Below are positions 44,175 through 60,478 of a stretch of DNA of 64,000 nt, one piece after another. The position numbers were made by a program, and so were the translations under genes. The notes below the pieces were generated by a model. The model was not told where the DNA came from, made no database searches, and saw nothing but the letters and a program-made list of their open reading frames with translations. The DNA lies in NCBI GenBank assembly GCA_964291405.2, contig OZ219926.1, positions 736,001-800,000 of the forward strand, given 5' to 3'. The DNA comes from Thermodesulfobacteriota bacterium (lineage in GTDB: Bacteria; Desulfobacterota; Binatia; Bin18). Numbering within the stretch: the first letter of the stretch is position 1; the number at the start of each line of letters is the position of its first letter.

Positions 44175-45515
44175 ATGGACCTGACAGAACTTGCTGCAGA
44201 TGTTCTCGATCAAGCCCGTCGGCAGGGTGCAACAGCAGGAGATTTGGTAATTGCGAGCGGGGAATCTTTTTCTGCGGGTATCCGCCTGGGAAAAGTCGAG
44301 AAAATTCAAAACTCCCAAGAGAAACGGATGGGGCTGCGCCTCTTTGCGGGTCAGAGTAGCGCCATTACCTCAACCGCAAATTTTACGCATGCGGCATTAC
44401 AGGCTTTTGTTGCGGAAACCCTCGATCTTGCCAAAGCGACTGCAGCTGATGAATTCTCCGGTCTCCCCGACCAGTCAGATTTGGCCCAGGACGTTCCAGA
44501 CCTCGATCTCACCGACACCAGCGTATCCCTCACCCTAAAAGAGAAACTTGCGCGAGCCCAGGAAGCGGAGGAAGCGGCATTTGCCAGCGATTCAAGGATT
44601 ACGAATTCTGAGGGTGCCGAGTTCGCAAACGCATCTCGTGAAATGGTCTATGCAAGCTCCCTGGGATTTTGTGGTAGCTACCACACCACGAGCTTCTCAC
44701 TAAGTGTTGTTCCGGTCGCTTCCCAAGACGGAGGGATGCAGCGAGACTACTGGTATTCATCGCAACGGAAACTCAAGGACCTTGAAGCGGCAAAAGCGGT
44801 CGGCCAAAAAGCCGCAGAACGGACGGTCCGTCGTCTTGGGGCAAAACAAGTCCAGACTCAAGAAGCGCCGGTCGTCTTTGAGCCGGAGATGGCAGCCAGT
44901 TTACTCCGTCATCTGGCCGGCGCGATTTCCGGCTCGGCCTTATATCGAAAAACTTCCTTCCTGCTCGATAAAATCGACGAGAAGATTGCGGCAGATGGGA
45001 TCTTTGTCGAAGACCACGCGCGCATTCCCTCCGCTTTAGGCTCAAAACCTTTTGACGGAGAAGGACTGCCAACCCGCCAGAATATTGTCGTTGAAGACGG
45101 GGTGCTCACGAGCTATCTCCTGGATACCTATTCTGCACGTAAACTCGGACTCAGATCTACCGGCAACGCCAGCCGTTCTTTTGCCGATACTCCGGCGGCC
45201 AGCACAACGAATTTCTTCTTACGGCCCGGTACGACCCCACCCGAGGATATTATTCGTTCGGTTCGGTCCGGCTTATATGTTACCGAGCTGTCCGGATTCG
45301 GTGTAAATCCCGTGACGGGCGACTATTCGCGGGGAGCGGTTGGACTGTGGATCGAAGGCGGAGAGATCGCCTATCCGGTGGAGGAGATCACTATCGCCGG
45401 TAATCTGCTCGATATGTTCAAAAACATTGAGATCATAGGCAACGACTTAGAACGGCGCGGGACGATCTCCGCACCAACAGTGAAAATTGCCCGTATGACA
45501 ATTGCCGGAACATAA
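44175..45515 (+). CDS. pmbA: TldE/PmbA protein
   Basis: MQRDYWYS, PFDGEG, GVNPVTGDYSRGA, EITIAGNL; directly follows tldD. Confidence 0.95.
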   Translation: MDLTELAADVLDQARRQGATAGDLVIASGESFSAGIRLGKVEKIQNSQEKRMGLRLFAGQSSAITSTANFTHAALQAFVAETLDLAKATAADEFSGLPDQSDLAQDVPDLDLTDTSVSLTLKEKLARAQEAEEAAFASDSRITNSEGAEFANASREMVYASSLGFCGSYHTTSFSLSVVPVASQDGGMQRDYWYSSQRKLKDLEAAKAVGQKAAERTVRRLGAKQVQTQEAPVVFEPEMAASLLRHLAGAISGSALYRKTSFLLDKIDEKIAADGIFVEDHARIPSALGSKPFDGEGLPTRQNIVVEDGVLTSYLLDTYSARKLGLRSTGNASRSFADTPAASTTNFFLRPGTTPPEDIIRSVRSGLYVTELSGFGVNPVTGDYSRGAVGLWIEGGEIAYPVEEITIAGNLLDMFKNIEIIGNDLERRGTISAPTVKIARMTIAGT

Positions 45516-45561: not shown

Positions 45562-47460
45562 GTGCGACAGAAACTTTACGACTATCTCGCGGACCGGCCA
45601 GGTGGAGCAACCTCGGCCGAGTTGCTCCACGAGATTTTCGTCTCGGGTGCGATTGCCCCCTTTCCTTCTCAACGTGACCCGGAGCTGGGCGCGCGCCTCA
45701 TCCATGCGGCCCTTGGCGCTGATCAACACTGCGCCTACGATGCGAAAACAGACCGTTGGACGCTCACGCTCCACGTCGACCTCAATCGACCACTCCGCGA
45801 TATCCAGTTTGTCGTTCTCGACCTCGAAACAACCGGTCTCAAGCCCGGCAAAGCGGCCATGACTGAAGTCGCCGCAGTTCGAGTCGGCCACGGGAAGCTT
45901 GACGAGGAGTTTCATACCCTACTCAATCCGGGCCAGCATGTTCCAGCCGGGATAACCCGTTTGACCGGCATCACCGATGCCATGCTCAGAGACCAGCCGC
46001 AGATTGAAGAAATCTTTCCTCAGTTACAGCGTTTTCTCGGTCAGGCAGTCATCGTTGCCCATAATGCCAGCTTTGACCTTGGCTTCCTCAACTTTGACGC
46101 GCAGCGTCTCTCTTCTGTCCCTTTACGAAACTCCTCAGTCTGCACCCTGAAGCTGGCTCGACGACTCTTATCTGGCATTCGGTCCCGTTCGCTCGACTCG
46201 GTCGCTGCCCACCTTGGCGTCTCGTATCCGACCCAACATCGTGCCTTGGCCGATGCACGGGTGACGGCGGAAATCTTTTGTATTTTTCTGGAGCAGCTCG
46301 TCCAACAAGGGGTCACCACGCTTGGTCAGCTACTCGAGTTTCAACAGAGCGCCCGCGATGGCCGCCGTTTTGAATGTTTTGTCCCCCGCCCGACGCTGGC
46401 AAATATTCCGGCAAGCCCTGGAGTTTATCGGATGCTCGACGCCGAGGGGAAGCTGCTCTACATCGGCAAAGCCAAGAATCTTCATCGTCGAGTCAACTCC
46501 TATTTCACCAATTCTGCGGGACACAGCGACAAGGTCCTCGATTTGGTCCGCCACGCGCGCGACGTTGTCTACGAACAAACCGGCTCGGAGCTTGAGGCGT
46601 CGTTACGCGAGGCTAGCCTGATTCGCGCCCTCAAACCACCGTATAATCGACTTTCCAAGCATCTCCCCCGGGTCGCATTTCTCAAGCTCAGCGTCAGGAA
46701 TGCCTATCCCCGCCTGTCGGTCACGGCAAAGCCAGGAAGTGATCGTGCCCTGTATATTGGCCCGTTCCGCAATCGCGACTTCGCCGAACGAGCCCAGCGA
46801 CTTCTAGCTCGACTTTTTGGCCTCAGAACCTGTCCGGGCAACCTCTCACCGACTCCTGAGGCGTCGCCTTGCGTGAGCGGTCAAATTGGCGCCTGTACCG
46901 CGCCGTGCGTAGGACGGGTCTCCCGCGAGACCTACCGGGAGCAAGTGCAGCGTTTCAGCGCGGCGCTCAGTGGTGAAGTCCCAATACTGCGAGAGACGTT
47001 AATCACAAAACGTGACCGTCTTGCCGCGGATTTACAATACGAAGGGGCCGCCCGCCTACAGCAGGATATCGAGTTGCTCGACCACGTTCTCCATCTGCAT
47101 CAGCGCTTTCATTGGATTGTGACGCGGGCGAATGCCTTGCTCTTATTGCCCAGCCGCCAAACCGGAACGGCCCAGGCCTATCTTGTCCTCAACGGACGTC
47201 TGATCGAAAACCGCGCCGTCTCCAGTCTTGGCGACCTGGAATGTCTGGCGGCCCTCGCGGATGAACACTTTAATACAGACCGTGATGTCCCTTTACGGCC
47301 TCACGAAATTGACGCCAGCGTGATTCTCTCCGCTTGGTTGCAGAACCCGGAGCAAGCGCAGAGCGCCGTTTTTTCGATTAGCGCCCCGTCGACACTCGGC
47401 AACCAACTGGACGATCTTCAAACAGCCCTGAGCGACCTCCAGCGGATTGAGTTTGCGTGA
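45562..47460 (+). CDS. DEDDh 3'-5' exonuclease (DnaQ-like) fused to a UvrC/Cho-like GIY-YIG endonuclease
   Basis: VLDLETTG, AHNASFD and HRALADA exonuclease motifs; PGVYRM...LYIGKAKNL...PPYN; C..C..CxxxC cluster; UVR-like helix YEGAARLQQ. Confidence 0.9.
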   Translation: MRQKLYDYLADRPGGATSAELLHEIFVSGAIAPFPSQRDPELGARLIHAALGADQHCAYDAKTDRWTLTLHVDLNRPLRDIQFVVLDLETTGLKPGKAAMTEVAAVRVGHGKLDEEFHTLLNPGQHVPAGITRLTGITDAMLRDQPQIEEIFPQLQRFLGQAVIVAHNASFDLGFLNFDAQRLSSVPLRNSSVCTLKLARRLLSGIRSRSLDSVAAHLGVSYPTQHRALADARVTAEIFCIFLEQLVQQGVTTLGQLLEFQQSARDGRRFECFVPRPTLANIPASPGVYRMLDAEGKLLYIGKAKNLHRRVNSYFTNSAGHSDKVLDLVRHARDVVYEQTGSELEASLREASLIRALKPPYNRLSKHLPRVAFLKLSVRNAYPRLSVTAKPGSDRALYIGPFRNRDFAERAQRLLARLFGLRTCPGNLSPTPEASPCVSGQIGACTAPCVGRVSRETYREQVQRFSAALSGEVPILRETLITKRDRLAADLQYEGAARLQQDIELLDHVLHLHQRFHWIVTRANALLLLPSRQTGTAQAYLVLNGRLIENRAVSSLGDLECLAALADEHFNTDRDVPLRPHEIDASVILSAWLQNPEQAQSAVFSISAPSTLGNQLDDLQTALSDLQRIEFA

Positions 47461-47531
47461 GATTCAGCGGAGAGTACGAAGATCTTTAGGGACTTGCGAC
47501 CCGCCGAACCGCCCCCTATAGTTTGCCCACC

Positions 47532-49202
47532 ATGACAGCAACGGCACGTCTGCAGGAATTACTCAAGCAGCCCGATCCAGCTTTGGTTCTGGGGGCACAC
47601 GACGCCCTGTCTGCCCGGCTGGCCCAGGAGGCCGGATTTGATGCCATCTGGGCCAGTGGTTTTGGCATCTCGGCTACCAACGCCATGCCGGATGCCAATA
47701 TACTCACAATGAGCGAGACCCTGGAGGCGGTGCGGCGGATGAGCACCGCAGTGAATATTCCGGTGATTGCCGATTGTGATAACGGCTTTGGCAACGCCAT
47801 TAACGTCATACGCACGGTGGCCGAGTACGAGCATGCTGGGGCAGCCGGCATTTGTATTGAAGATAATATCTTTCCCAAACGATGCAGCTTTTACGCCGGA
47901 GTCCAACGCGAACTCGTCCCGATTGACGAGCACGCCCGAAAAATCCAGGCCGCGACGGCCGCACGGCAGAATGCCGACTTTGTCATTATTGCCCGCACGG
48001 AAGCTTTTATTGCCGGTTGGGGGAAACACGAGGCACTACGTCGAGCCCGTGCCTATGTTGAAGCAGGCGCTGATGCCATCCTCATCCATTCCAAAGCAGC
48101 AACGTTTGATGAAGAACTGAGAGATTTTGCGGCAAGCTGGGATATGCCCTGTCCGCTCGTATCCGTACCAACAACCTATGCCGATATTACTGCCCACGAC
48201 CTTGCGGCCGCCGGTTTTCAGCTCGTTATTTTTGCCAACCAGACCCTGCGCGCCGCTGTCACCGGAATGCGAAACGCGTTAACGACTCTCAAACGAGAAG
48301 GCCGACCGGCGGCGGTTGATAAACAGATTGTTACCTTGTCCGAAATCTACGACCTCGTTGGTGTGCCCGACCTCCAAGCCAACGAAAAGAAATTTCTCGT
48401 CCCCGGCGGACATGAGGTGACCGCGATTATTATTGCGGCCGGCTTTGAGGAGGATCTCTTACCCCTGATCGAGGACCGTCCAAAGGCCATGCTTGAAATC
48501 AGAGGCAAGACCATTCTGGAGCGACAGATTCAGGTGCTGAACGAGTGCGGGGTCAAGGATATCGTCGTTGTCCGGGGCTATCACAAAGAGCGGATCAATC
48601 TGCCGAATATTCGCTACTACGACAATGACCGCTTCCGTGAGACTGGCGAGCTCGCCTCCCTCTTTCTGGCCGAGGCGGAGATGACGGGTCGCTTCCTCTT
48701 TCTGTATTCGGACATTCTTCTCGATCCTTCCATTCTCGAAAAATTGCTCAAGTCTCCAGCTGATATCAACATCGTGGTTGACCGTGCCTGGAACGATCAC
48801 GAACCGGGACAGACGGAGGCACGGAGGAAGAAGCCAGACTTGGTGGTCACCCAGAGACCGCCCAAGACAGGCTATCGCTACCTCCCAACCGCCGAGACCA
48901 CGACGCTGACGCAGATTGGCCAACATATTACACCACAGGATGCCGATGGTGAATTTATTGGCCTCGCCATGTTTTCCGCCTCGGGAGCGCAAGTCTTGCG
49001 GACGACCAATCAAGAGCTTCAGACGTTTACTGCGACACAGCGCTTCCATGAAGCCAGCACCCTGGAAACCGCAGCTTTCACCGACATGCTCCAAGAGCTC
49101 ATTGATCGCAACCACGACATCGCCTGTGTGGATATTTATAAAGGCTGGCTTGAAATCGATACCTTCGAAGATTACCGACGTGCCTGGGCAAAAATCCACT
49201 AG
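47532..49202 (+). CDS. PEP mutase/phosphonopyruvate hydrolase-subfamily enzyme fused to a C-terminal LicC/PntC-like nucleotidyltransferase
   Basis: GAHDALSA, WASG, PDAN, DCDNGFGN, ARTEAFIAGWG, IHSK, VPTTY; the loop reads EDNIFPKRCS instead of EDKxFPKxNS; C-domain AAG...RPKAML...GY...WLEIDT. Confidence 0.85.
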   Translation: MTATARLQELLKQPDPALVLGAHDALSARLAQEAGFDAIWASGFGISATNAMPDANILTMSETLEAVRRMSTAVNIPVIADCDNGFGNAINVIRTVAEYEHAGAAGICIEDNIFPKRCSFYAGVQRELVPIDEHARKIQAATAARQNADFVIIARTEAFIAGWGKHEALRRARAYVEAGADAILIHSKAATFDEELRDFAASWDMPCPLVSVPTTYADITAHDLAAAGFQLVIFANQTLRAAVTGMRNALTTLKREGRPAAVDKQIVTLSEIYDLVGVPDLQANEKKFLVPGGHEVTAIIIAAGFEEDLLPLIEDRPKAMLEIRGKTILERQIQVLNECGVKDIVVVRGYHKERINLPNIRYYDNDRFRETGELASLFLAEAEMTGRFLFLYSDILLDPSILEKLLKSPADINIVVDRAWNDHEPGQTEARRKKPDLVVTQRPPKTGYRYLPTAETTTLTQIGQHITPQDADGEFIGLAMFSASGAQVLRTTNQELQTFTATQRFHEASTLETAAFTDMLQELIDRNHDIACVDIYKGWLEIDTFEDYRRAWAKIH

Positions 49203-49261
49203 CCCTAAGATGGCTGGTACGAGCATCCAGGCTTGCGGTACGGTCTCGGGTGGGGTGCCCT

Positions 49262-50227
49262 ATGGACGTACGAAACATTAATACGCTTATTAAAGACGAG
49301 TACGCGTTTTTCTTGCGCGAGCGGGACAACTGGAGCCTGACCGCCGGTCCACAAGACCTTGAACTCGTTGCCCACGCGCTACGCGTTCTCTTGCACGCAC
49401 GAACCACTCCAGATTTCCTGGACGACTATCGCGCGCTCGTGGCCTGCCAGAATGGGGACGGCGGCTGGAGTCCCCTCTCTTCCAATACCGAGAGCACCGT
49501 CTGGGTGTCGGCGTTCTGCGGCCTCATGCTTATTCGCGGCAACCGTTTTCTTCGGCACGCGCAACTGACCGGGTCGGTCCAGCAAGCCATCGACTACTTT
49601 CTCGATACCCAGCACCAGGACGGCCGGTGGGTTGACCCGGCCTGGGCCGACCTGGATACGACCAGTCATCCGGTCAGTTTTTTTAATGTAGTCATGGCCT
49701 TGGGCGAAACCCACAGGCAGCAGGAGGTCCGGCACGCCTGGCAGCAGGGCATGCGCTTTATCATCGACAACCAGAGCCCGGATGGCGGCTGGTATGATGA
49801 TGAGTTTCATCCGTCTGGCGTAGAGATTACTGCCCACCTAATCCAAGACGCGCTGGTCGCCGATCTCGTTCTTGACCAACAGGTCAGCGGAGTCCGCGAG
49901 GCATGCGCCAAAGGGGCCGCCCGGTTATGTGACTGGCAAGCCCAGGCCGGCTCGTGGGACGAAGAGAACGTCGACCACACCATGGACTGTACGCGGTCGC
50001 TTATGCTGGTGACCCATATTCTACAAGAGCCCCACAAGCGTGAGACTATTCTGCGTGGCCTCGGTTGGATTCTGGACCATAAGAACGACCACGGCTGGGG
50101 CGACTTTCCAGGCATGGAGACAAATCTGGAGCGCACCTGTGACGGCATCGACACCCTGCTGAAATATCAAGCCTACCGTAACAGCGACACGCACGATGTT
50201 GTCAAACTCTGGGGGTATCTCCCCTAG
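49262..50227 (+). CDS. Prenyltransferase/squalene-oxidase-repeat (alpha/alpha barrel) protein, class II terpene cyclase-like
   Basis: QW-type repeats QNGDGGW, QHQDGRW, QSPDGGW, QAQAGSW, KNDHGW; DLDTT motif. Confidence 0.75.
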   Translation: MDVRNINTLIKDEYAFFLRERDNWSLTAGPQDLELVAHALRVLLHARTTPDFLDDYRALVACQNGDGGWSPLSSNTESTVWVSAFCGLMLIRGNRFLRHAQLTGSVQQAIDYFLDTQHQDGRWVDPAWADLDTTSHPVSFFNVVMALGETHRQQEVRHAWQQGMRFIIDNQSPDGGWYDDEFHPSGVEITAHLIQDALVADLVLDQQVSGVREACAKGAARLCDWQAQAGSWDEENVDHTMDCTRSLMLVTHILQEPHKRETILRGLGWILDHKNDHGWGDFPGMETNLERTCDGIDTLLKYQAYRNSDTHDVVKLWGYLP

Positions 50228-50247
50228 ACATCCGTTGCACCTGGTTT

Positions 50248-50571
50248 ATGCCGCCTCACGCTCCGGCAAAAAGCGGCTGGCAGGCAGTCTGCCAGGCCGA
50301 CGCACTTCTCCCAGGAGAACGGAAACTCGTTACAGCCAACGGCGTGGAGATTGCTCTTTTCAATATCGACGGAGCCGTTTTCGCCATTAACAACCGCTGT
50401 CCTCACCGCAAGGGACCCTTGATTCGTGGCTATACAGACAGTGCAGGCGGTATCAAATGTCCGATGCACGGCTGGCGATTTGATCTGCGGACCGGCCAGA
50501 GCCGACGGCCAGCCCAGGCCACGACGTACCGGACAAAGATTGAGAACGGCACGATTCTTCTTGCTCTCTAA
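50248..50571 (+). CDS. Rieske [2Fe-2S] ferredoxin (NirD-like)
   Basis: CPHRKGPL and CPMHGWRFDL motifs. Confidence 0.92.
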   Translation: MPPHAPAKSGWQAVCQADALLPGERKLVTANGVEIALFNIDGAVFAINNRCPHRKGPLIRGYTDSAGGIKCPMHGWRFDLRTGQSRRPAQATTYRTKIENGTILLAL

Positions 50572-51146: not shown

Positions 51147-51252
51147 ATCTCCACTATTTCAGTGCTGAAAAAGCTTGCGTTGGCGTCGTGCGCCGCGCGG
51201 CTGTCGTTTTCTTTGCCCAATAACGTTTCACGACCTCCAAAGACTTTTGGAG

Positions 51253-52671
51253 ATGACAGATATGTTTTATCGCCTTATACACTCTCAACGTTTAGTCTTT
51301 TTGACCCATGTGAGCCTCGGCGTCTATCTACTACTGGAGCTGACAGGCTGTGGCACACTGCCTGTTGCGGAAAGCACACTTGAGCCACGTCGTTTAGGCC
51401 AAGAATACTCAACCTATAATGCTCCGCTCACGCCGTCGGAAGCAGAGACTCCCCCTCCCTTTGTAGAGCCACGCGGCGAACTGACACTCCGTTCGGCCCT
51501 GGTGGCAGCCCTCCTGAATAATCCGACCTTGGCCGCGTTTTCGTGGGAGGTTCGCGCTCGGGAAGCACGAGCCTTGCAAGCCGGCGTTCTCCCGAACCCG
51601 CAAGCGAGTCTTGAAATGGAGGAGTTCGGCGGAAGCGGTAACCGGACAGAGTTTGATGAAACAGAAACAACGCTCTCGTACAACCAACTCCTCGACCTCG
51701 GAGGCAAGCGGGCCAAACGTCAACGCGTGGCAACGTTGGAACGGGACTTAGCCGTGTGGGATTATGAAGCCCGACGCCTTGATGTCTTCACCGCTGTTGT
51801 CAAAGCCTTTGTGGTCACACTTGCTGCGCGGGAACGGGTCGCGCTCGCCGAAGAACAAGTGCAACTGGCAGAAGAAGCCCTCAGAACCGTGGGTCGGCAG
51901 GTCAAAGCCGGGGCAGTGTCACCTGTAGAAGAAACTCGTGCACGAGTCGCATTAGCCAGCAGCCAAGTCGAACTTGCGCTACGACAACGGAAACAGATTG
52001 CTACCCGGCTCCAGCTTGCCGCAACCTGGGGCAGCACGGTGGTCACGTTCTCAACGGTCGAAGGCGATTTAGAGCCTGTCATCCCGCCGCCAGCCGCTGA
52101 CGATCTCCTCCCGCACCTCATCCACAATCCTGACATTGCTCGCTGGCGGATGGAAAAAGAACAACGCCTCGCCGCGTTTGAACTGGAACAGGCCCGCCAG
52201 ATTCCAAACGTCGAGGTCGGCGCGGGCGTGCGATATTTCAATACAGATGATACTGCGGCGCTGATCTTTGAGACCCGCATGCCGCTCATGTTGTTCGACC
52301 GCAATCAAGGCGGCATTCAGGAAGCCTATGCCCGCTTAGCCAAGGCGGACGCGCAACAGCGAGCAGCAGAGATCCAGAGCCGGGCGGCCTTGGCGGCTAC
52401 GCATCAATCCCTGTTCTCTGCTTTTGAGCAGGTCTCTACACTGCGAGATACCATTCTGCCTCAAGCTCACTCCGCTTTTGAGGAAGTGAACCAAGCATAC
52501 CGGCGCGGGCTGTTTCGCTACCTGGACGTTTTAGACGCCCGGCGCACGCTGTTTAAACTGCGCGAACAGTATGTAGAGGCCCTCGCGAGCTACCACACGG
52601 CCGCAGCTGACGTGGAGCGCCTCATAGCCGAGCCGCTTCATGCTCTCAACCATACAGACGGGACACACTAA
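51253..52671 (+). CDS. czcC: Outer-membrane factor, CzcC/TolC family lipoprotein
   Basis: LTGC lipobox, ALLNNPTL, QAGVLPNP, LFDRNQG, YLDVLDARRTL. Confidence 0.88.
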   Translation: MTDMFYRLIHSQRLVFLTHVSLGVYLLLELTGCGTLPVAESTLEPRRLGQEYSTYNAPLTPSEAETPPPFVEPRGELTLRSALVAALLNNPTLAAFSWEVRAREARALQAGVLPNPQASLEMEEFGGSGNRTEFDETETTLSYNQLLDLGGKRAKRQRVATLERDLAVWDYEARRLDVFTAVVKAFVVTLAARERVALAEEQVQLAEEALRTVGRQVKAGAVSPVEETRARVALASSQVELALRQRKQIATRLQLAATWGSTVVTFSTVEGDLEPVIPPPAADDLLPHLIHNPDIARWRMEKEQRLAAFELEQARQIPNVEVGAGVRYFNTDDTAALIFETRMPLMLFDRNQGGIQEAYARLAKADAQQRAAEIQSRAALAATHQSLFSAFEQVSTLRDTILPQAHSAFEEVNQAYRRGLFRYLDVLDARRTLFKLREQYVEALASYHTAAADVERLIAEPLHALNHTDGTH

Positions 52672-52672
52672 T

Positions 52673-53644
52673 ATGAAAACAGACACACGATATCGCTCAG
52701 TCACTCACGTGCTCATCCTCCTCCTGCTTACACTGCTGTTTGCCTGTCATAGCGCAGAAAGTGAAGCGCCTCACGGTCACGACGAGGAGTACAGCCCCGA
52801 AGAGGGAGACGAACATGAAGAAGGGGTCGTGCAACTCTCCCCGGAGGAACTTACCGAGTTCAGTATCGAACTCGCTCGTGCTCAACCCGGCACAATTACA
52901 CGCACAGTTGAGCTACCGGGGGAAGTACAGCCAAACGAAGACCGGCTGGCGCATATTGTCCCGCGCTTTCCTGGCATCGTGACCACTGTCTACAAAAAGA
53001 CCGGAGATACGGTTCACGTACGCGAAACTCTCGCGATTATCGAGAGTAATGAGAGCTTGGCTCCATATGAACTCAAAACACTCACCGCTGGAACAGTCAT
53101 TGAAAAACACATCACCCGTGGCGAGGCAGTCACCCGTGAGAGTCAAGCATTTGTGATTGCCGACCTGAAAAGTGTGTGGGTCAATCTAAGCGTGTATCAG
53201 AAGGATTTACCCGGCGTGCGCGTCGGCCAGTCGGTCACGATTTCTGCAGACCACGGTCTCTCTGAAGCGACAGGAAAAATCTCCTACGTAACGCCGACCG
53301 TCGACGAGGAAACCCGCACGGCGACCGCACGGGTCGTCCTGTCGAATACCAAGAAGCAATGGCGGCCGGGGATGTTTGTCACCGGGCGTGTTGTGGTCGA
53401 GCGTACGGACGTACCGCTTGCGGTTCCCGTCATCGCCCTCCAGACGATGGCCGCCCAGACCATAGTGTTCGTCGAAACAGCCGAGGGCTTTCAGGCCCAG
53501 ACTGTGACGACGGGACGCGCTGATGACCGCTACGTAGAAATCCGAGAAGGGTTAAAGCCAGGGGAGCGCTACGTTAGCCGTGGGGGCTTTACCCTCAAAG
53601 CAGAGATGTCTCGTGAACAGTTTTATGATGGCCACGGACACTAA
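52673..53644 (+). CDS. czcB: RND periplasmic adaptor, CzcB family
   Basis: His/Glu-rich N-terminus (HGHDEE), IADLKSVWV, DEETRT, WRPGMFV, C-terminal GHGH. Confidence 0.9.
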   Translation: MKTDTRYRSVTHVLILLLLTLLFACHSAESEAPHGHDEEYSPEEGDEHEEGVVQLSPEELTEFSIELARAQPGTITRTVELPGEVQPNEDRLAHIVPRFPGIVTTVYKKTGDTVHVRETLAIIESNESLAPYELKTLTAGTVIEKHITRGEAVTRESQAFVIADLKSVWVNLSVYQKDLPGVRVGQSVTISADHGLSEATGKISYVTPTVDEETRTATARVVLSNTKKQWRPGMFVTGRVVVERTDVPLAVPVIALQTMAAQTIVFVETAEGFQAQTVTTGRADDRYVEIREGLKPGERYVSRGGFTLKAEMSREQFYDGHGH

Positions 53645-53657
53645 GGGGGCGGCGGCC

Positions 53658-56600
53658 ATGGAGCGCATCATTCAGTTCAGCCTCTCCAACCGTTCGCTCA
53701 TGGCCGTTCTCGGCGTCCTCCTGGCGGTGGCCGGCTATCGCAGCTACGCGCAGCTCCCCGTGGACGCCTTTCCCGATGTCTCCCCCAATCTGGTGCAGGT
53801 GTTTACCGAGACCGAAGGGCTTGCGCCAGAAGATGTTGAACAATATGTCACCTATCCCATTGAAGCCGTCATGAATGGGCTGCCCGCCATCGAGCGTATC
53901 CGGTCCGTCTCGAACTTTGGCCTCTCTGTCGTCAATATCTACTTTGCGGATGACACAGACATCTATCTTGCGCGACAGCTTGTGAACGAACGGCTGCAAG
54001 AAGCCCGAGAGCGGATTCCCCAAGGTTTTGGAGACCCCAAGCTGGGTCCTATCTCGACCGGCATGGGTCTCGTCCTGTTCTACTATCTGGAAGACGAGGC
54101 TAGTCAGTATACGCTCGAAGAACTCCGGGCCATTCAGGACTGGCTGGTCAAGTTTCATTTGCAAACGGTCCCTGGTGTCACCGAAGTGCTCGGCATTGGG
54201 GGATATGAAAAACAATTTCAGGTAGCCGTCCACCCGGAACTCTTACTCCGGGCCGGGGTCACGATTCGCGATGTGATGACCAGCATCCAAGAAAACAACC
54301 TCAACGTCGGTGCCCAATTTATCGAGAAGAACGCCGAAGAGTTTGTGGTGCGTTCGGTGGGGCTGGTCTCGAACATTGCCGATCTTGAAAACATTGTCAT
54401 CAAGGCCAAGGATGGGACGCCAGTCTTTCTGCGCGAGCTTGCAGACGTCCAGGTCGGCGGCGCCATTCGGCGTGGTGTCCAAACCAAAAATGGGGTCCAG
54501 GAAGTCGTCGCCGGGATGGTAGTCAAGCTCTTGGGGACAAACTCCTCGACGGTGATCGGACAGGTTGAAGCCAAAATGGCAGAGATCAATCGGATTCTTC
54601 CGGCCGGAGTCACGCTTACTCCTTATTACGAACAAAAGACCCTGGTTGCGGCCTGTGTGGCAACGGTTCGGAATGCCTTGGTTCAGGGCGTGATTTTGGT
54701 GGTGTGCGTCCTCCTGCTCTTTCTGGGCAGCCTGCGGCCGAGTGTTGTTGTTGCGCTGGCGGTTCCCTTCTCCGTCCTGTTTGCCACCTTCTGGATGGGG
54801 TATTTGAACATCTCGGCCAATCTCATGTCCCTGGGCGGACTGGCTATTGCGATTGGTATGCTGGTCGACGGGACGATAGTCCTGGTAGAAAACGTGGACC
54901 GCGGGCTGCGGGAGGCGACTCCTGCCATCCCACACGCACAGATAGTCGCTCAGGCGTGTACAGAGGTCGCGCGGCCGATTTTCTTTGCGATTAGCATTGT
55001 TGTGGTTGTTTTTCTCCCGCTCTTTCTCCTCCAGGGGGTAGAGGGCAAAACGTTTCGTCCGCTCGCCTACACAGTGGTGTTGGCCATGGGCGGATCGCTG
55101 CTCTTTACGCTGTTTCTTGCTCCCGTCCTGGCGGTGACGATCATGCGCCGCTCATCGCATCGCCAGGCGTCTTCCACATCCTCCGCGGGTCTCCTCGTCC
55201 GAGGGATTATCCGTCTCTATCGGCCTGTGGTGAGGCTCTTTGTACGGCGACGGGTGATGGCCGTCAGTGTCGCCGTCCTTTTGGTCGCGCTCGGTGGCCT
55301 CGTGCTTCCCTTGCTTGGCTCGGAGTTTACCCCTCGGCTCCAAGAAGGGACCTTAGTCTTGCGGCTCACGATGGCGCCCTCAATTTCGCTGCAGGAGAGT
55401 CAGCGAGTGACCATGATTGTCGAGCGACGGCTGATGAAAATCCCAGAAATTCTCGGTGTGACAACGCGGATTGGCCGAGGGGAAGTCGGCGCGCATACGG
55501 ACCCGATCAATAATGCCGAAATGTATATTCTGCTGAAGCCCCAAGCCGAATGGCGAACGGCGCGGAATCAAGAGCAGCTCGAAGGTGTTATTCGGAAGGA
55601 GTTGGGCCGGGTTCCCGGTGTGTTGACAAACTTTACCCAACCGATCGCCATGGCCGTCGATGAACTCCTTGAGGGTGTCCGCGCAGAGCTTGCCATTAAG
55701 CTTTTTGGCGATGACCTCGAAGTCCTCCTAGCTAAAGGCAACGAAATTGCCAACGTGACGCGACGTATCCGAGGGGCAGCCGACGTGCAGGTAGATCAAG
55801 TGGCAGGGACGCCACAACTCGTCATCCGCGTCAGTCGCCAAGCAGTTGCGCGGTACGGGATGAATGTGGCGGACGTCCAACAGACGATCCGAACCGCAGT
55901 CGGGGGTGAGGTCGTGGGACAGATTTTTGAGGGTGCTCGCCGGTTTGCCATCCTCGTCCGGTTTGCTCCAGAATATCGAAGCACGCGCGCGGCAATCGGC
56001 AACATCCTCATTCCTGGTCCGGGGCGCGTACGCGCCCCGCTCTCAGAGCTGGCAACGATTGAAGAAGTGATCGGCCCGCGCCAGATCACTCGAGAGAATA
56101 CTCAGCGTTTTCTCACCATTCAGTGTAATGTCATGGGCCGGGATATTGGGTCATTCGTGCAGGAGGCCCAAGCCGCCATTGACGCCCAGGTGCGTCTTCC
56201 AGCAGGCTATCTGGTCACTTGGGGCGGTCAATTTCGTTTGCAACAAGAGGCAAATAAACGCCTAGCCATCGTGATTCCCATCACCCTGCTCATCGTCTTC
56301 TTGCTCTTGTTCTCCAGCTTTCAATCGCTCAGAAACGCGTTGTTGATTATCCTCAATATTCCGTTGGCACTTGTGGGCGGAGTGGTCGCGTTATGGGTGA
56401 CGGATCAAAACCTCTCCGTTCCCGCTTCGGTTGGCTTTATTGCGCTCTTTGGCCTTGCTCTTGAGAATGGCATGGTGTTAGTCACCTATCTCAATCAACT
56501 GATTCGGGAAGGCGTCGCGGTTGATGACGCGGTCGTGAGAGGCGCATGTTTACGCTTACGGCCGGTGCTGATGACCGCCGTAACAACCGCCTTGGGCCTT

Positions 56601-56759
56601 ATTCCCCTTCTGGTCTCGCAAGGTACGGGGAGTGAGGTACAGCGCCCACTGGCAACCGTTGTCATAGGAGGGCTGGTTTCGTCAACCGTGCTCACCCTGC
56701 TGGTACTCCCCGCGCTGTACGCCTGGAGTGAACAACGACATCTTCGTCGGACGATATAG
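53658..56759 (+). CDS. czcA: Heavy-metal efflux RND permease, CzcA/CusA family (divalent-type architecture)
   Basis: LPVDAFPDVS, TYPIE, LMSLGGLAIAIGMLVDG, RLRPVLMTA, GSEVQRPLATVVIGGL. Confidence 0.92.
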   Translation: MERIIQFSLSNRSLMAVLGVLLAVAGYRSYAQLPVDAFPDVSPNLVQVFTETEGLAPEDVEQYVTYPIEAVMNGLPAIERIRSVSNFGLSVVNIYFADDTDIYLARQLVNERLQEARERIPQGFGDPKLGPISTGMGLVLFYYLEDEASQYTLEELRAIQDWLVKFHLQTVPGVTEVLGIGGYEKQFQVAVHPELLLRAGVTIRDVMTSIQENNLNVGAQFIEKNAEEFVVRSVGLVSNIADLENIVIKAKDGTPVFLRELADVQVGGAIRRGVQTKNGVQEVVAGMVVKLLGTNSSTVIGQVEAKMAEINRILPAGVTLTPYYEQKTLVAACVATVRNALVQGVILVVCVLLLFLGSLRPSVVVALAVPFSVLFATFWMGYLNISANLMSLGGLAIAIGMLVDGTIVLVENVDRGLREATPAIPHAQIVAQACTEVARPIFFAISIVVVVFLPLFLLQGVEGKTFRPLAYTVVLAMGGSLLFTLFLAPVLAVTIMRRSSHRQASSTSSAGLLVRGIIRLYRPVVRLFVRRRVMAVSVAVLLVALGGLVLPLLGSEFTPRLQEGTLVLRLTMAPSISLQESQRVTMIVERRLMKIPEILGVTTRIGRGEVGAHTDPINNAEMYILLKPQAEWRTARNQEQLEGVIRKELGRVPGVLTNFTQPIAMAVDELLEGVRAELAIKLFGDDLEVLLAKGNEIANVTRRIRGAADVQVDQVAGTPQLVIRVSRQAVARYGMNVADVQQTIRTAVGGEVVGQIFEGARRFAILVRFAPEYRSTRAAIGNILIPGPGRVRAPLSELATIEEVIGPRQITRENTQRFLTIQCNVMGRDIGSFVQEAQAAIDAQVRLPAGYLVTWGGQFRLQQEANKRLAIVIPITLLIVFLLLFSSFQSLRNALLIILNIPLALVGGVVALWVTDQNLSVPASVGFIALFGLALENGMVLVTYLNQLIREGVAVDDAVVRGACLRLRPVLMTAVTTALGLIPLLVSQGTGSEVQRPLATVVIGGLVSSTVLTLLVLPALYAWSEQRHLRRTI

Positions 56760-59700: not shown

Positions 59701-60451
59701 CGCCACGGACGATATATTCCACCCGGTTCACTTCAATAGTGCGCGCACCGACATCGAGATTGGAGCTACGAACCGCATTGATGATCTGGGCAAGACTGAC
59801 ATCATACGCCCGAAGCGCATCGGGGTTGATGTCGATTTGGTATTCTTTGACAAACCCGCCGATAGAGGCCACCTCGGCAACGCCATCCGCCCCTTGCAGC
59901 GCATAGCGAACGTACCAGTCCTGGACGCTACGGATCTCGTCCAGATTCCAGCCACCGGTTGGATTGTCATCAGGATCACGGCCTTCGAGCGTATACCAGA
60001 AGATCTGTCCCAGGGCGGTCGCATCCGGCCCTAGAGCGGGCGAGACATCGTCCGGTAACATGCCTTGTGGGAGGCTGGAGAGTTTCTCCAACACCCGGGA
60101 ACGGGACCAATAGAAGTCCACTTCATCCTTGAAAATGACGTAGATGGAGGAGTATCCAAAATACGAAAAGCTCCGGATGGTTTTGACACCGGGTATCCCC
60201 AGCAGGGAGACCGTCAGCGGGTGGCTGATTTGATCCTCAACATCACGCGGAGAGCGTCCCGGCCATTTCGTAAAGACAATTTGCTGATTCTCGCTAATGT
60301 CCGGGATGGCATCGACCATGACCGGGTTCCGGGGGAGAAAATCGAGCTTCCAATCAAACGGGGCAACCATGATGCCCCACGCAGTAACGAAGATAATGAA
60401 GAGGGCAACGACCAGCTTATTTTCAAGACAAAAGCGGATAGCGGTATTCAT
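56783..60451 (-). CDS. cusA: Cu(I)/Ag(I) efflux RND permease, CusA type (long form)
   Basis: DAIPDISENQQIVFT, LGPDATALGQ, LDEGSFLYMPTTMP, DPAPISMFE, IVMLQSGM (Met sites), RIRPALMT. Confidence 0.92.
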   Translation of the reverse strand: MNTAIRFCLENKLVVALFIIFVTAWGIMVAPFDWKLDFLPRNPVMVDAIPDISENQQIVFTKWPGRSPRDVEDQISHPLTVSLLGIPGVKTIRSFSYFGYSSIYVIFKDEVDFYWSRSRVLEKLSSLPQGMLPDDVSPALGPDATALGQIFWYTLEGRDPDDNPTGGWNLDEIRSVQDWYVRYALQGADGVAEVASIGGFVKEYQIDINPDALRAYDVSLAQIINAVRSSNLDVGARTIEVNRVEYIVRGVGFIQTLQDIEDIAITVRENNIPVQVKDVAQVRLGPALRRGALDKDGAEVVGGVVVVRYGENPLTTIQNVRAKIDEISPGMPEKTLADGTVSKLTIVPFYDRTGLILETLGTLRAALTEEILVTVIVVVVMVFHLMSAFLIALVLPLAILIAFGLMQAFQVPANIVALSGIAIAIGTMVDMGIVLCENILFHLNAAPPGKSRLEIVYEATVEVAGAVRTAVLTTVVSFLPVFALQAAEGKLFTPLAYTKTFALLGALFVSLVVIPPAAYLLFRDWTGRTGLRRGLYLVESIAGLLLMWTYLFPGLVLMLLGVSNLARETFLSRYVWLSRYERYLALTGIIVVTLFFLARSWLPIGVETGTPINMVFVGVLIVLVLTGFKFFQDVYPRLLGWCLQHKLLFAVIPLSVVVAGGAIWSRMGEEFMPTLDEGSFLYMPTTMPHASIGEALEVVKNLDMAVAAIPEVALSVGKLGRVDSSLDPAPISMFENVINYKSEYIVDANGYPVYFRYDTAADEFVRDAQGQLIPDSDGRPYRQWRAHIRTPDDIWNEIVRVTTIPGVTSAPKLQPIAARIVMLQSGMRAPMGVKVKGPTLETIDTTGQQIETWLKEVPSIEPATVIADRVIGKPYLEIRINRARIARYGLTIKAVQDIIEVAVGGKPLTLTVEGRERYPVRIRYLRELRNDLDTLGGILIPTPLGQHIPLRELADISFERRAQVIKSEDTFLTSYVVFDKKPGHAEVEVVREAQVYLQDKLASGEWQLPAGVSYTFAGSYENQLRAKKRLSVVIPLTLFVIFLILYLQFRSVTTTFFIFSGIFVAWAGGFLMLWLYAQDWFLNVGLGEINLRDLFQVRPFNLSVAVWVGFIALFGIATDNGVLIASYLEQRFEKDGPGTREGIRAAVRLAAQRRIRPALMTMATTLLALLPVLTSRGRGADIMVPMAIPSFGGMAIALLTVFVVPVLYCGVAEFRAQRRVES

Positions 60452-60478
60452 GCAGAACTCCCCCCGTGTCTTTGGACC

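What the first reader, a model, noticed from the sequence alone, without database searches (positions are those of the whole stretch)
47532..50571. Candidate cryptic phosphonate system: PepM-like enzyme with an EDNxFPKRCS loop fused to a nucleotidyltransferase, plus a terpene-cyclase-like gene and a Rieske ferredoxin
Seen: the enzyme keeps PepM/phosphonopyruvate-hydrolase landmarks (PDAN, DxDxGFGN, ARTEAFIAGWG, HSK, VPTxY), but its gating loop is EDNIFPKRCSF, intermediate between PepM EDKxFPKxNS and the KRCGH loop of (methyl)isocitrate lyases. The fused transferase has a degenerate Gly loop (AAGFEEDL). No phosphonopyruvate decarboxylase or other usual driving enzyme is adjacent. Known: phosphonate genome mining filters on EDKxxxxxNS, and PepM-cytidylyltransferase fusions make CMP-phosphonates for lipids and glycans. 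Inference: a variant that motif screens would miss, possibly making a phosphono-terpenoid or lipid, or catalysing a different reaction through the Cys.
Basis: partly seen in the sequence, partly recalled or inferred. Interest (0 to 1): 0.8.

Follow-up and report, generated by a model that had tools for sequence, protein, structure and literature searches.

The report
Off-motif PEP mutase for phosphonolipid synthesis
This gene most likely makes the carbon-phosphorus bond for a membrane phosphonolipid, but its active-site loop departs from the textbook signature, so the usual motif-based surveys of phosphonate producers would miss it and its many relatives.

Summary
Window 47523-49202 (+) encodes a 559-aa fusion of a PEP-mutase-like domain and a LicC-like nucleotidyltransferase domain. 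The mutase domain carries the loop EDNIFPKRCSF where canonical PepM has EDKxFPKxNS. The transferase Gly loop is degenerate (AAGFEEDL). A 321-aa squalene-cyclase-like barrel and a Rieske protein follow.

The system is not "cryptic". The same genome holds a split phosphonopyruvate decarboxylase, an AepZ aminotransferase and a canonical nucleotidyltransferase 1.08 Mb away. They sit between hpnN and hpnK/I/J. In 30 of 80 related loci from other phyla, the orthologue keeps EDNxFPKRCSF and lies beside that split decarboxylase. A CDP-alcohol phosphotransferase is often nearby too.

All nine genomes with an orthologue that I checked hold the split decarboxylase. The six of them searched for PepM homologues hold no canonical one.

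Best reading (0.75): a working PEP mutase with an off-motif loop feeds 2-aminoethylphosphonate into a phosphonolipid, possibly hopanoid-linked. EDKX5NS filters would drop it. The clade lies outside the canonical PepM crown. The barrel and the Rieske protein are predicted to bind each other; their role is open. This is a new variant of a known kind.

The parts
47523..49202 (+). 559-aa fusion protein: PepM-like domain plus LicC/PntC-like domain. The start may instead be the ATG at 47532.
   Evidence: ORF list and translation; Pfam PF13714 and PF12804; 120 listed homologues of about 556-584 aa.
47541..48410 (+). PEP-mutase/isocitrate-lyase-superfamily barrel (residues 7-296).
   Evidence: Aligned to PepM 5unc (E 1.4e-80), PPH 2dua (6.8e-73) and Mytilus PepM 1m1b (2.2e-61). 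TIGR02320 scores 274.3 bits and TIGR02321 273.4 bits, both under their cut-offs.
47859..47891 (+). Gating-loop signature EDNIFPKRCSF (residues 113-123): Asn for PepM Lys116 and Cys for PepM Asn122.
   Evidence: Invariant in alignment A1, in 116 of 120 homologues and in 80 of 80 loci.
48414..49199 (+). LicC/PntC-like nucleotidyltransferase-fold domain (residues 298-559), probably not a working cytidylyltransferase.
   Evidence: The best solved relative is LicC 1jyk (E 5.2e-14). The PntC-AEPT structure 6pd1 also matches. PF12804 scores 45.1 bits.
48435..48458 (+). Degenerate Gly loop AAGFEEDL, where LicC has AAGLGTRL.
   Evidence: Alignment. AAGFE is invariant in A1. Variants AAGFEPQL, AAGFEEEM and AAGASPGM occur in other loci.
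49250..50227 (+). Single (alpha/alpha)6-barrel protein with squalene-cyclase-type repeats. Homologues are 321 aa, so the start is probably the ATG at 49262.
   Evidence: Pfam. 319 homologues, typically 321 aa. AF2 model with pLDDT 93.9. Fold matches to drimenyl-diphosphate synthase, SHC, MstE and cellobiose 2-epimerase. It lies next to the target in 26 of 80 loci.
50248..50571 (+). 107-aa Rieske [2Fe-2S] protein.
   Evidence: PF00355 scores 71.5 bits. C51, H53, C71 and H74 are invariant in 18 sequences. It is present in 25 of 80 loci. It is predicted to bind the barrel protein.

Best explanation
The 559-aa protein is the organism's PEP mutase. Its N-terminal barrel converts phosphoenolpyruvate to phosphonopyruvate, even though its gating loop reads EDN...KRCS and not EDK...xNS. 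A split, two-subunit phosphonopyruvate decarboxylase pulls the unfavourable equilibrium. An AepZ-type aminotransferase then makes 2-aminoethylphosphonate (AEP). A separate nucleotidyltransferase with an intact Gly loop makes CMP-AEP. A CDP-alcohol phosphotransferase family enzyme puts the AEP head group on a membrane lipid alcohol, either diacylglycerol or possibly a hopanoid polyol. In this lineage (closest relatives are Candidatus Binatia MAGs) the pathway is split over at least two places. The mutase sits with the barrel and Rieske genes in the window. The decarboxylase, aminotransferase and transferase sit inside a hopanoid side-chain cluster 1.08 Mb away. The fused LicC-like domain has lost the triphosphate-binding loop, so it is more likely a regulatory or scaffolding module than a second cytidylyltransferase. 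What is shown: sequence features, gene neighbourhoods and co-occurrence. What is inferred: every enzymatic step, the lipid acceptor, and the roles of the fused domain, the barrel and the Rieske protein.
For: (1) Eight of ten PepM active-site residues are kept and invariant: D58, D85, D87, E114, K120, S123, R159 and H190 in Mytilus numbering. (2) Own genome: G000:C3:1860592-1863546 (L011 8593-11546) carries four adjacent genes: a Ppd alpha-like (161 aa), a Ppd beta-like (194 aa), an aminotransferase and a 252-aa nucleotidyltransferase. The aminotransferase passes the TIGR03301 PhnW-AepZ cut-off (365.4 vs 360.8 bits). The nucleotidyltransferase has the loop AAGVGKRF. (3) Of 80 related loci, the orthologue has PpdA within about 5 kb in 30, PpdB in 28, AepZ in 20 and a free nucleotidyltransferase in at least 27. 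These loci come from Nitrospirota, Planctomycetota, Acidobacteriota, Myxococcota and others, and all keep EDNxFPKRCSF. (4) Five genomes whose orthologue has no adjacent Ppd all hold the split Ppd elsewhere (5 of 5). Their only strong TIGR02320 hit is the fused EDN/KRCS protein (276-295 bits, none over 319.55). (5) In a 151-genome sample of the phylum, 5 genomes match the protein, the window's own (G000) among them. Of the four others, the three of the same class have the split Ppd, directly downstream of the target in G081 and G148. A class member without the protein (G043) has no Ppd. The 43%-identical fourth genome, G024, has a one-piece Ppd over the cut-off. (6) The own genome has five PF13714 genes. 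The other four carry KRCG-type or no loop motifs, and none has EDKX5NS. (7) A CDP-OH_P_transf gene closes the operon in L046 and follows the nucleotidyltransferase in L071. Homologues lie in about 18 of 80 loci, often beside an LPG_synthase_TM protein. (8) On trees rooted with lyase-type paralogues, the protein falls on the PepM/PPH side of a 100/98* branch that separates it from KRCG lyases. (9) Contigs identical to parts of the gene occur in two metatranscriptomic libraries, X15 and X16. This is weak evidence, because DNA carry-over is not excluded.
Against: No activity was measured. The protein fails both curated PepM tests: TIGR02320 scores 274.3 bits against a 319.55 cut-off, and the EDKX5NS motif is absent. 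A review attributes the mutase-versus-hydrolase difference between PepM and PPH mainly to Asn122Thr, and names Asn122 as a likely ligand of the phosphoryl group (passages read in PMC7916636). A Cys at this position could therefore change the chemistry. The Ppd halves score as well against sulfopyruvate decarboxylase models as against Ppd: alpha 129.2 vs 130.9 bits, beta 181.1 vs 179.5 bits. In the window's own genome the pathway genes are not adjacent, and no CDP-alcohol phosphotransferase lies beside either cluster; two paralogues lie elsewhere. 26 of 80 loci show neither Ppd nor the barrel gene nearby, although many of these are short contigs. The AF2 model of the fusion is poor in the active-site loops, so it adds nothing.
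Confidence: 0.75

Rival explanations
1. The Cys-bearing loop marks a different reaction: a lyase or hydrolase acting with Cys as general acid/base, as in (methyl)isocitrate lyases, or a phosphonopyruvate hydrolase. On this reading the protein is not a PEP mutase.
For: The KRC tripeptide is shared with lyases; the own-genome paralogues read EDQVEPKRCGHY and similar. The PrpB model still scores 210.3 bits. Change at Asn122 is linked to the switch from mutase to hydrolase in PPH (PMC7916636). Both PepM membership tests fail.
Against: A conserved operon with Ppd, AepZ, a nucleotidyltransferase and a CDP-alcohol transferase needs a source of phosphonopyruvate, and no other candidate exists in the 6 genomes checked. 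Gly-His after the Cys is replaced by Ser-Phe as in PepM, and the rest of the PepM residue set is kept. The protein is separated from KRCG lyases by a 100/98* branch. The one PPH-type row (P0164, loop K..DTS) falls in the canonical group of the tree (29 rows, support 93/99, unstarred). A hydrolase beside a decarboxylase of the same substrate makes no pathway sense.
Confidence: 0.08
2. The clusters make a sulfonate rather than a phosphonate: the split decarboxylase is a ComDE-type sulfopyruvate decarboxylase and the PepM-like enzyme handles a sulfo-analogue.
For: The two subunits score almost equally on the sulfopyruvate decarboxylase models TIGR03845 and TIGR03846, and the split architecture is that of ComD/ComE. 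The controls that ring at E<=1e-20 include two methanogens.
Against: The aminotransferase passes the AEP-specific TIGR03301 cut-off. Nucleotidyl activation and a CDP-alcohol phosphotransferase require a phosph(on)ate group. No enzyme of this superfamily is known to me to make sulfopyruvate (recalled, not tested). The decarboxylase models also stay under the ComDE cut-offs (129.2 vs 147.95 and 181.1 vs 221.5 bits).
Confidence: 0.05
3. The fusion is a catalytically dead or purely regulatory relic, and phosphonopyruvate comes from an unrecognised enzyme or from uptake.
For: Two signature residues are changed and the fused transferase loop is degenerate.
Against: There is strong purifying selection: 69% mean column identity across phyla, with all metal and substrate ligands invariant. 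Co-occurrence with Ppd is strict, 9 of 9 carrier genomes. The gene sits at the head of the operon, directly upstream of the Ppd genes, in many loci.
Confidence: 0.05

Closest known systems
Canonical PEP mutase (PepM/Ppm; Mytilus 1m1b/1pym, Streptomyces 5unc; TIGR02320)
   Same: Same fold, with E values of 1e-80 to 1e-61. It keeps the Mg and substrate ligands D58, D85, D87, E114, K120, S123, R159 and H190. It has the same operon partners: Ppd, the AEP aminotransferase and a nucleotidyltransferase.
   Different: The loop reads EDNxFPKRCS, so Lys116 becomes Asn and Asn122 becomes Cys. It scores under the equivalog cut-off. On rooted trees it branches outside the canonical EDK...NS group: 89 rows at SH-aLRT 95* in the quick tree, and 29 rows at 93/99, unstarred, in the careful tree. 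Its decarboxylase partner is split into two subunits.
PepM-nucleotidyltransferase (PF12804) fusions described by Rice et al. 2019 (PMC6697681)
   Same: The architecture, a PepM barrel fused to a LicC/PntC-like domain, is the commonest PepM fusion type (33% of motif-bearing PepMs). Some clusters hold both a fused and a free transferase (passages read).
   Different: That inventory kept only EDKX5NS proteins: 883 of 905 fusions passed and 22 fused proteins were discarded. The present family would be among the discarded kind. Here the fused Gly loop is acidic (GFEED). Several canonical C-terminal fusions in my sample also have non-canonical loops such as AASRGxxL, so loop decay is not unique to this clade.
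Phosphonopyruvate hydrolase (PalA; 2dua; TIGR02321)
   Same: A close homologue (E 6.8e-73) that also changes the Asn122 position.
   Different: PPH keeps EDK and has Thr, not Cys. On the tree it falls in the canonical group (29 rows, 93/99, unstarred). It is catabolic and unfused. The query scores 273.4 bits against a 374.4 cut-off.
(Methyl)isocitrate lyases (PrpB/ICL, KRCGH loop)
   Same: Same superfamily. It shares Lys-Arg-Cys at the same loop positions.
   Different: There is no Gly-His after the Cys. It scores 210 bits against a 354 cut-off. It is separated by a 100/98* branch. Its neighbours are phosphonate genes, not propionate or glyoxylate genes.
PepM genes linked to terpene/hopene-cyclase genes in Nitrosococcus and Roseomonas (PMC8942020, PMC7285500, PMC8776678)
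   Same: This is genomic linkage of AEP-type phosphonate genes with hopanoid or terpenoid genes. The authors speculated about a 'phosphonoterpene' or 'terpene-phosphonate' (passages read).
   Different: Those are antiSMASH-level remarks on PepMs that passed the motif filter, and no product is known. Here the linked genes are the side-chain enzymes hpnI/J/K and an HpnN-like transporter gene, and the mutase is off-motif.
Class II terpene cyclase beta-domain proteins, including monodomain MstE (6sbb)
   Same: The 321-aa neighbour is a single (alpha/alpha)6 barrel with squalene-cyclase repeats. VIA Z is 26-27 to drimenyl-diphosphate synthase and SHC, and 24 to MstE.
   Different: Cellobiose 2-epimerases score as high (Z 28). 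I could not place a catalytic DxD(D) motif: the profile aligned its DLDTT to a repeat in the N-terminal part of SHC (residues ~85-93), not to the acid site. Its invariant residues are rich in His, Asp, Glu and Cys. It is predicted to dock a Rieske protein, which no terpene cyclase known to me does (recalled).

Membership tests
PEP mutase (PepM/Ppm) | PEP_mutase/ICL superfamily barrel (PF13714) | tested here: met
   207.8 bits against a 31.5 cut-off, residues 11-255.
PEP mutase (PepM/Ppm) | Equivalog model TIGR02320 above its curated cut-off | tested here: not met
   274.3 bits against 319.55. Orthologues in five other genomes score 276-295 bits.
PEP mutase (PepM/Ppm) | EDKX5NS signature | tested here: not met
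   The loop is EDNIFPKRCS. This is conserved in the family.
PEP mutase (PepM/Ppm) | Metal and substrate ligands D58, D85, D87, E114, K120, S123, R159 and H190 | tested here: met
   By HMMER alignment to 1m1b they correspond to D57, D84, D86, E113, K119, S122, R158 and H189, all invariant in A1.
PEP mutase (PepM/Ppm) | Coupling to a phosphonopyruvate-consuming enzyme (Ppd) in the genome or operon | tested here: met
   Adjacent in 30 of 80 loci. Present elsewhere in the own genome and in 5 of 5 and 3 of 3 further carrier genomes.
PEP mutase (PepM/Ppm) | PEP to phosphonopyruvate activity | not testable with these tools
   Needs an enzyme assay.
Phosphonopyruvate hydrolase | TIGR02321 above its cut-off; Thr at the Asn122 position | tested here: not met
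   273.4 bits against 374.4. The residue is Cys, not Thr. The PPH-type representative P0164 sits in the canonical group (29 rows, 93/99, unstarred).
Methylisocitrate/isocitrate lyase | K(K/R)CGH loop and equivalog score | tested here: not met
   KRC is present but is followed by S-F. TIGR02317 scores 210.3 bits against 354.4.
LicC/PntC-type cytidylyltransferase (fused domain) | PF12804 fold | tested here: met
   45.1 bits against a cut-off of 27. LicC 1jyk matches at E 5.2e-14.
LicC/PntC-type cytidylyltransferase (fused domain) | G-x-G-[TK]-R triphosphate-binding loop | tested here: not met
   The loop is AAGFEEDL against LicC AAGLGTRL. The free 252-aa paralogue has AAGVGKRF.
Class II terpene cyclase (49250-50227) | Squalene-cyclase repeats and an (alpha/alpha)6 barrel | tested here: met
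   PF13243 scores 35.6 bits against 26.1. The model has pLDDT 93.9, and fold Z is 24-27 to cyclases.
Class II terpene cyclase (49250-50227) | Catalytic DxDD (or DxD in MstE) at the active-site position | tested here: inconclusive
   An invariant DLD(T)T exists, but profile alignments do not place it on the SHC acid motif. The note that MstE uses DxD comes from PMC12414744.
Rieske [2Fe-2S] protein (50248-50571) | CxH ... CxxH cluster ligands | tested here: met
   C51-P-H53 and C71-P-M-H74 are invariant in 18 sequences. PF00355 scores 71.5 bits.

The most novel reading that the evidence does not exclude
The EDN...KRCS enzymes are a relic of the lyase-to-mutase transition. They would move the phosphoryl group with the help of the lyase-type Cys, perhaps through a transient S-phosphocysteine. 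Their product, AEP, would be attached through CMP-AEP to a bacteriohopanepolyol derivative made by HpnI/J/K, giving a 'phosphonohopanoid' exported by the HpnN-like transporter. A previously unknown two-component enzyme, an (alpha/alpha)6 barrel with a docked Rieske cluster, would tailor the lipid or head group.
Probability: 0.12. Interest if true: 0.85.

Novelty: new variant of a known kind. Interest (0 to 1): 0.6.

Why it matters
Published inventories of phosphonate producers keep only PF13714 proteins with EDKX5NS (PMC6697681, PMC8942020, PMC8931226). This clade fails that filter. Yet it sits in complete AEP operons in Nitrospirota, Binatia, Planctomycetota, Acidobacteriota and Myxococcota. 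One of the two patterns also fits canonical PepMs, and only the 80 loci kept were checked for the loop.

Among 137 representatives near the query, a further 23 have xNS without EDK. So the filter is too narrow in more than one way. Phosphonate production in soil, sediment and symbiont bacteria may therefore be underestimated.

Mechanistically, a natural Asn122-to-Cys and Lys116-to-Asn mutase would test what these loop residues do. The repeated linkage to hopanoid side-chain genes also points to an unseen class of membrane lipid.

Tried and rejected
(1) The AF2 model of the whole fusion (pLDDT 81.7, pTM 0.51) has pLDDT under 50 at residues 48-60, 87-89 and 120-125, which are the active-site loops. 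I drew no structural conclusion about Cys121 and ran no fold search on it.

(2) I considered reading the barrel's invariant DLDTT as an MstE-like catalytic DxD. The profile search aligned it to a DLDTT repeat in the N-terminal part of SHC (residues ~85-93), not to the acid site, so I dropped the claim.

(3) On 'the EDN/KRCS state is ancestral': the free trees show these rows as a basal grade. The AU test does not reject holding all 18 such rows as one clade (p-AU 0.535; the constrained tree scores 1.87 lnL higher). Grade versus sister clade therefore stays open.

(4) A greedy gene caller picked spurious opposite-strand ORFs. I replaced it by scanning all ORFs of at least 110 aa against Pfam.

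(5) My first regex for Gly loops found almost nothing. I replaced it with an alignment.

(6) The promoter and terminator scan found 2 promoter-like sites against 2.9 expected, so it gives no evidence. The site at 47494-47522 is only a hint that translation may start at 47532.

(7) RNA-library contigs leave 48843-49508 and other parts of the stretch uncovered, and nothing follows from that.

(8) The search of earlier findings returned nothing for this place.

(9) Literature searches for a described KRCS-type PepM or a hopanoid-AEP conjugate found none. The library lacks most subscription journals, and I opened no supplementary files.


Full report
WHAT IS THERE

Window 47523-49202 (+) is one ORF of 559 aa. 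It has a TTG start.

Pfam finds PEP_mutase (residues 11-255, 207.8 bits) and NTP_transf_3 (319-421, 45.1 bits). NCBIfam scores the N-terminal half almost equally on PEP mutase (TIGR02320, 274.3 bits, cut-off 319.55) and phosphonopyruvate hydrolase (TIGR02321, 273.4, cut-off 374.4). It scores lower on methylisocitrate lyase (210.3). No model passes its cut-off.

Two genes follow after gaps of about 59 and 20 bases:
- A squalene-cyclase-repeat protein at 49250-50227. Homologues are 321 aa, so its start is probably 49262.
- A 107-aa Rieske protein at 50248-50571.

THE LOOP

HMMER alignments to solved structures place the loop in register:

| Protein | Loop |
|---|---|
| Streptomyces PepM 5unc | IEDKRFPKVNSF |
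| Mytilus PepM 1m1b | LEDKLFPKTNSL |
| PPH 2dua | MEDKTFPKDTSL |
| Query | IEDNIFPKRCSF |

In Mytilus numbering, Lys116 becomes Asn and Asn122 becomes Cys. D58, D85, D87, E114, K120, S123, R159 and H190 are kept.

In an alignment of 21 family members at 58-92% identity, all of these residues, N115 and C121 are invariant. The loop occurs in 116 of the 120 best database homologues. It occurs in all 80 related genomic loci. One of the two fetching patterns contained EDN, so that set is partly selected.

A review states that R159 and H190, and hypothetically N122 and S123, contact the phosphoryl group. It also says most authors ascribe the PepM/PPH difference to Asn122Thr (PMC7916636, passages read). 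The Cys is therefore at a position that matters.

THE FUSED DOMAIN

The C-terminal 260 residues are most like LicC (1jyk, E 5.2e-14) and also match the PntC-AEPT structure 6pd1. LicC's AAGLGTRLRPL is AAGFEEDLLPL here. The second Gly, the Thr and the Arg are replaced by Glu-Glu-Asp.

The loop is degenerate throughout the family: AAGFEPQL, AAGFEEEM, AAGASPGM. An alignment of C-terminal tails shows that several canonical EDK...NS fusions also have non-canonical loops such as AASRGxxL. The free 252-aa transferase of this genome has AAGVGKRF. I infer that the fused domain is not the working cytidylyltransferase. This is untested.

THE MISSING PARTNERS ARE NOT MISSING

A search of the window's own genome with the Ppd model found an adjacent pair of genes 1.08 Mb away, matching the two halves of the model. 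The region (L011) reads as follows, by NCBIfam:

| Gene | Bits | Cut-off |
|---|---|---|
| HpnM-like | 46 | 160.1 (under) |
| HpnN-like RND transporter | 601.8 | 751.85 (under) |
| Ppd alpha (161 aa) | 130.9 | 312.5 (TIGR03297, whole protein) |
| Ppd beta (194 aa) | 179.5 | 312.5 (TIGR03297, whole protein) |
| PhnW-AepZ aminotransferase | 365.4 | 360.8 (passes) |
| 252-aa nucleotidyltransferase | – | – |
| HpnK | 303 | 232.6 (passes) |
| HpnI (opposite strand) | 364.8 | 310 (passes) |
| HpnJ (opposite strand) | 727 | 577.6 (passes) |

The genome has a bona fide squalene-hopene cyclase (677 bits). It has four further PF13714 paralogues with KRCG-type or no loop motif, and none has EDKX5NS.

RELATED LOCI

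The best 80 loci were kept. The closest, at 89-94% identity, are Candidatus Binatia MAGs. The rest come from Nitrospirota, Myxococcota (Polyangiaceae), Planctomycetota, Acidobacteriota and others.

I ran tblastn with the window's and L011's proteins, requiring at least 50% query coverage. Counts of 80 loci:

| Gene near the orthologue | Loci of 80 |
|---|---|
| Barrel gene | 26 |
| Rieske gene | 25 |
| PpdA | 30 |
| PpdB | 28 |
| AepZ | 20 |
| Free nucleotidyltransferase | at least 27 |
| HpnI | 4 |
| HpnJ | 4 |
| HpnK | 3 |

The Hpn hits fall in five loci in all. 26 loci show neither Ppd nor the barrel gene, and many of them are contigs of 2-6 kb.

In two Nitrospiria loci (L046, L063) one strand carries PpdA-PpdB-AepZ-transferase-barrel-Rieske. 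In L046 this run ends with a CDP-alcohol phosphotransferase. So the barrel/Rieske pair belongs to the AEP module in a second phylum.

L071 carries this run:
- HpnK, a sulfatase-family membrane protein, HpnI and HpnJ;
- then the orthologue and PpdA/B;
- then, after inserted genes, AepZ, the transferase, a CDP-alcohol phosphotransferase and an LPG_synthase_TM protein.

Homologues of the CDP-alcohol phosphotransferase lie in about 18 of 80 loci. The own genome has two unlinked paralogues of about 430 aa.

CO-OCCURRENCE

Five genomes whose orthologue lacked an adjacent Ppd all hold the split pair elsewhere (5 of 5). Where the 3.5-kb loci reach, AepZ and the transferase lie beside it. In the Binatia genome G004 an HpnN-like gene lies beside it too.

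In the same five genomes the only strong TIGR02320 match is the fused protein (276-295 bits), and nothing passes the cut-off.

In a 151-genome sample of the phylum, 5 genomes match at E<=1e-60, G000 included. Of the five further genomes then tested:
- The three carriers of the same class have the split Ppd. In G081 and G148 it starts 53 and 67 bases after the orthologue.
- A class member without the protein has none.
- The 43%-identical hit G024 has a one-piece Ppd over the cut-off.

At E<=1e-20 the Ppd model rings in 3 of 14 control genomes. Kin are not independent, so these are counts, not statistics.

PHYLOGENY

A search of 1.84 billion representatives with residues 1-296 gave 10,903 hits, and the best 150 were listed. 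Loops form a spectrum. Among the 137 rows kept (at least 240 aligned residues; 16 of 153 dropped):

| Loop type | Rows of 137 |
|---|---|
| EDK...xNS (canonical) | 80 |
| Another residue after ED, still xNS | 23 |
| N..RCS | 14 |
| Lyase type Q..RCG | 5 |
| PPH type K..DTS | 1 |
| Other or not read by my pattern | 14 |

A quick tree and a careful tree were both rooted on the genome's own lyase-type paralogues. The careful tree has 85 rows and uses LG+C20+F+G4. It holds all non-canonical rows, every fourth canonical row and seven Ppd-adjacent orthologues.

Both trees put all PepM-like rows beyond a 100/98* branch from KRCG lyases. They place the N..RCS, Ppd-adjacent rows in several basal lineages. 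The branches that split them from the rest, canonical rows included, score 100/95* and 100/97* in the careful tree. The canonical EDK...NS rows with the PPH type form a derived group. It holds 89 rows at SH-aLRT 95* in the quick tree, and 29 rows at 93/99, unstarred, in the careful tree.

The AU test does not reject making the 18 N..RCS fused rows one clade (p 0.535). So it is safe to say that the family lies outside the canonical group. It is not safe to say that its loop is ancestral.

THE BARREL AND THE RIESKE PROTEIN

The barrel family has 319 detectable members. An atlas look-up names it only 'terpene cyclase/mutase family', with members in Binatota, Nitrospinota, Thermodesulfobacteriota and Nitrospirota.

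Its model is confident (pLDDT 93.9) and is a single (alpha/alpha)6 barrel. Foldseek ranks drimenyl-diphosphate synthase, SHC, two about-345-residue chains titled 'squalene-hopene cyclase' (8pak, 8paj) and MstE. VIA-align gives Z 28 (rmsd 2.9, 308 aligned) to cellobiose 2-epimerase, Z 26-27 to cyclases and Z 24 to MstE. The fold alone therefore does not decide between a cyclase-like and a sugar-epimerase-like role.

The Rieske ligands are invariant.

A complex prediction supports binding of the two proteins:
- The score is 0.75, the median of runs scoring 0.04, 0.75 and 0.79. The best of 3 controls scored 0.00.
- The mark was reached by 116 of 157 solved complexes and 2 of 215 mismatched pairs.
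- The runs agree in at least 19% of contacts, and partner pLDDT is at least 81.
- My own alignments were used, so the calibration counts hold only roughly.

The predicted interface puts the Rieske cluster loops (53-57, 70-76) against residues 34, 126-128, 181-184, 188, 233-238 and 281-290 of the barrel. Many of these are invariant polar residues. This is a model, not a measurement. I infer a two-component redox tailoring enzyme of unknown substrate.

EXPRESSION

Contigs identical to parts of the mutase gene and to the region just past the Rieske gene occur in two metatranscriptomic libraries (X15, X16). Contigs 90-95% alike cover parts of all three genes in two others (X17, X20). Contigs from RNA libraries show presence only.

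WHAT IS KNOWN

PepM-PF12804 fusions and nucleotidyl activation of AEP are established (PMC6697681, abstract and passages). Three papers remark in passing on PepM genes beside terpene or hopene-cyclase genes and speculate about a terpene-phosphonate (PMC8942020, PMC7285500, PMC8776678; passages).

My searches found no paper on a KRCS-type PepM or on an AEP-hopanoid. I opened no supplements.

VERDICT

It is wrong that a driving enzyme is lacking.

It works like a PepM, by strong genomic inference. It fails two formal membership tests for canonical PepM. I file it as a new variant of a known kind, with interest 0.6.

Noticed in passing
window 37412-42331 (-): A complete rRNA operon: 23S at 37412-40390, two tRNAs at 40542-40703 and 16S at 40778-42331. 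It lies about 5 kb upstream of the finding.
   Followed up: no
window 45562-47460 (+): A 632-aa fusion of a DnaQ-type exonuclease (RNase_T) and a GIY-YIG domain lies directly upstream of the mutase. A homologue lies upstream of the orthologue in 24 of 80 loci. Four of these are distant loci at 44-48% identity, 2-7 kb away (L042, L043, L071, L089).
   Followed up: partly
window 42661-45515 (+): Two adjacent ORFs of 481 and 446 aa, recognised by eye as a TldD/PmbA-type protease pair and labelled so in my scripts; no family search was run on them. They are syntenic in 17 of 80 loci.
   Followed up: no
window 51175-56759 (+) and 56783-63300 (-): Two RND efflux gene sets lie back to back. The + strand set has an outer-membrane factor (PF02321), an adaptor-like protein and a 1059-aa pump. 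The - strand set has a 1222-aa pump with two more ORFs of 457 and 483 aa. Apart from the outer-membrane factor, these roles were read by eye from the translations.
   Followed up: no
G000:C3:1399111, 2595068, 3362627, 3671671 (L006, L010, L008, L009): Four further PEP_mutase-superfamily paralogues lie in the same genome. Three have lyase-type loops (EDQVEPKRCGHY, EDQVWPKRCGFL, EDQDVPRRCGHL). The best Pfam scorer (L006, 256 bits) has no recognisable loop motif.
   Followed up: partly
L046 6055-6747; L063; L100/L107: A 2OG-Fe(II) oxygenase (PF13759) lies next to PpdA in Nitrospirota loci. It might hydroxylate the phosphonate head group; this is a guess.
   Followed up: no
representatives P0121-P0270: Among 137 PepM-like representatives, 23 have the NS pair but not EDK (EDN, EDQ, EDS, EDG, EDA, EDH). 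A few have RSS, RHS or NHS. The strict EDKX5NS pattern would therefore drop several other lineages as well.
   Followed up: partly
L071 5305-7749 (-): An 815-aa membrane protein with a sulfatase/phosphodiesterase domain, the architecture of phosphoethanolamine-type transferases as I recall it, lies between hpnK and hpnI next to the orthologue. It was found only in this one of 80 loci.
   Followed up: partly
G000:C3:2850930-2852849 (L098): There is a second, weaker squalene-hopene-cyclase-like match (272.7 bits, under the cut-off) inside a 1273-aa open frame.
   Followed up: no
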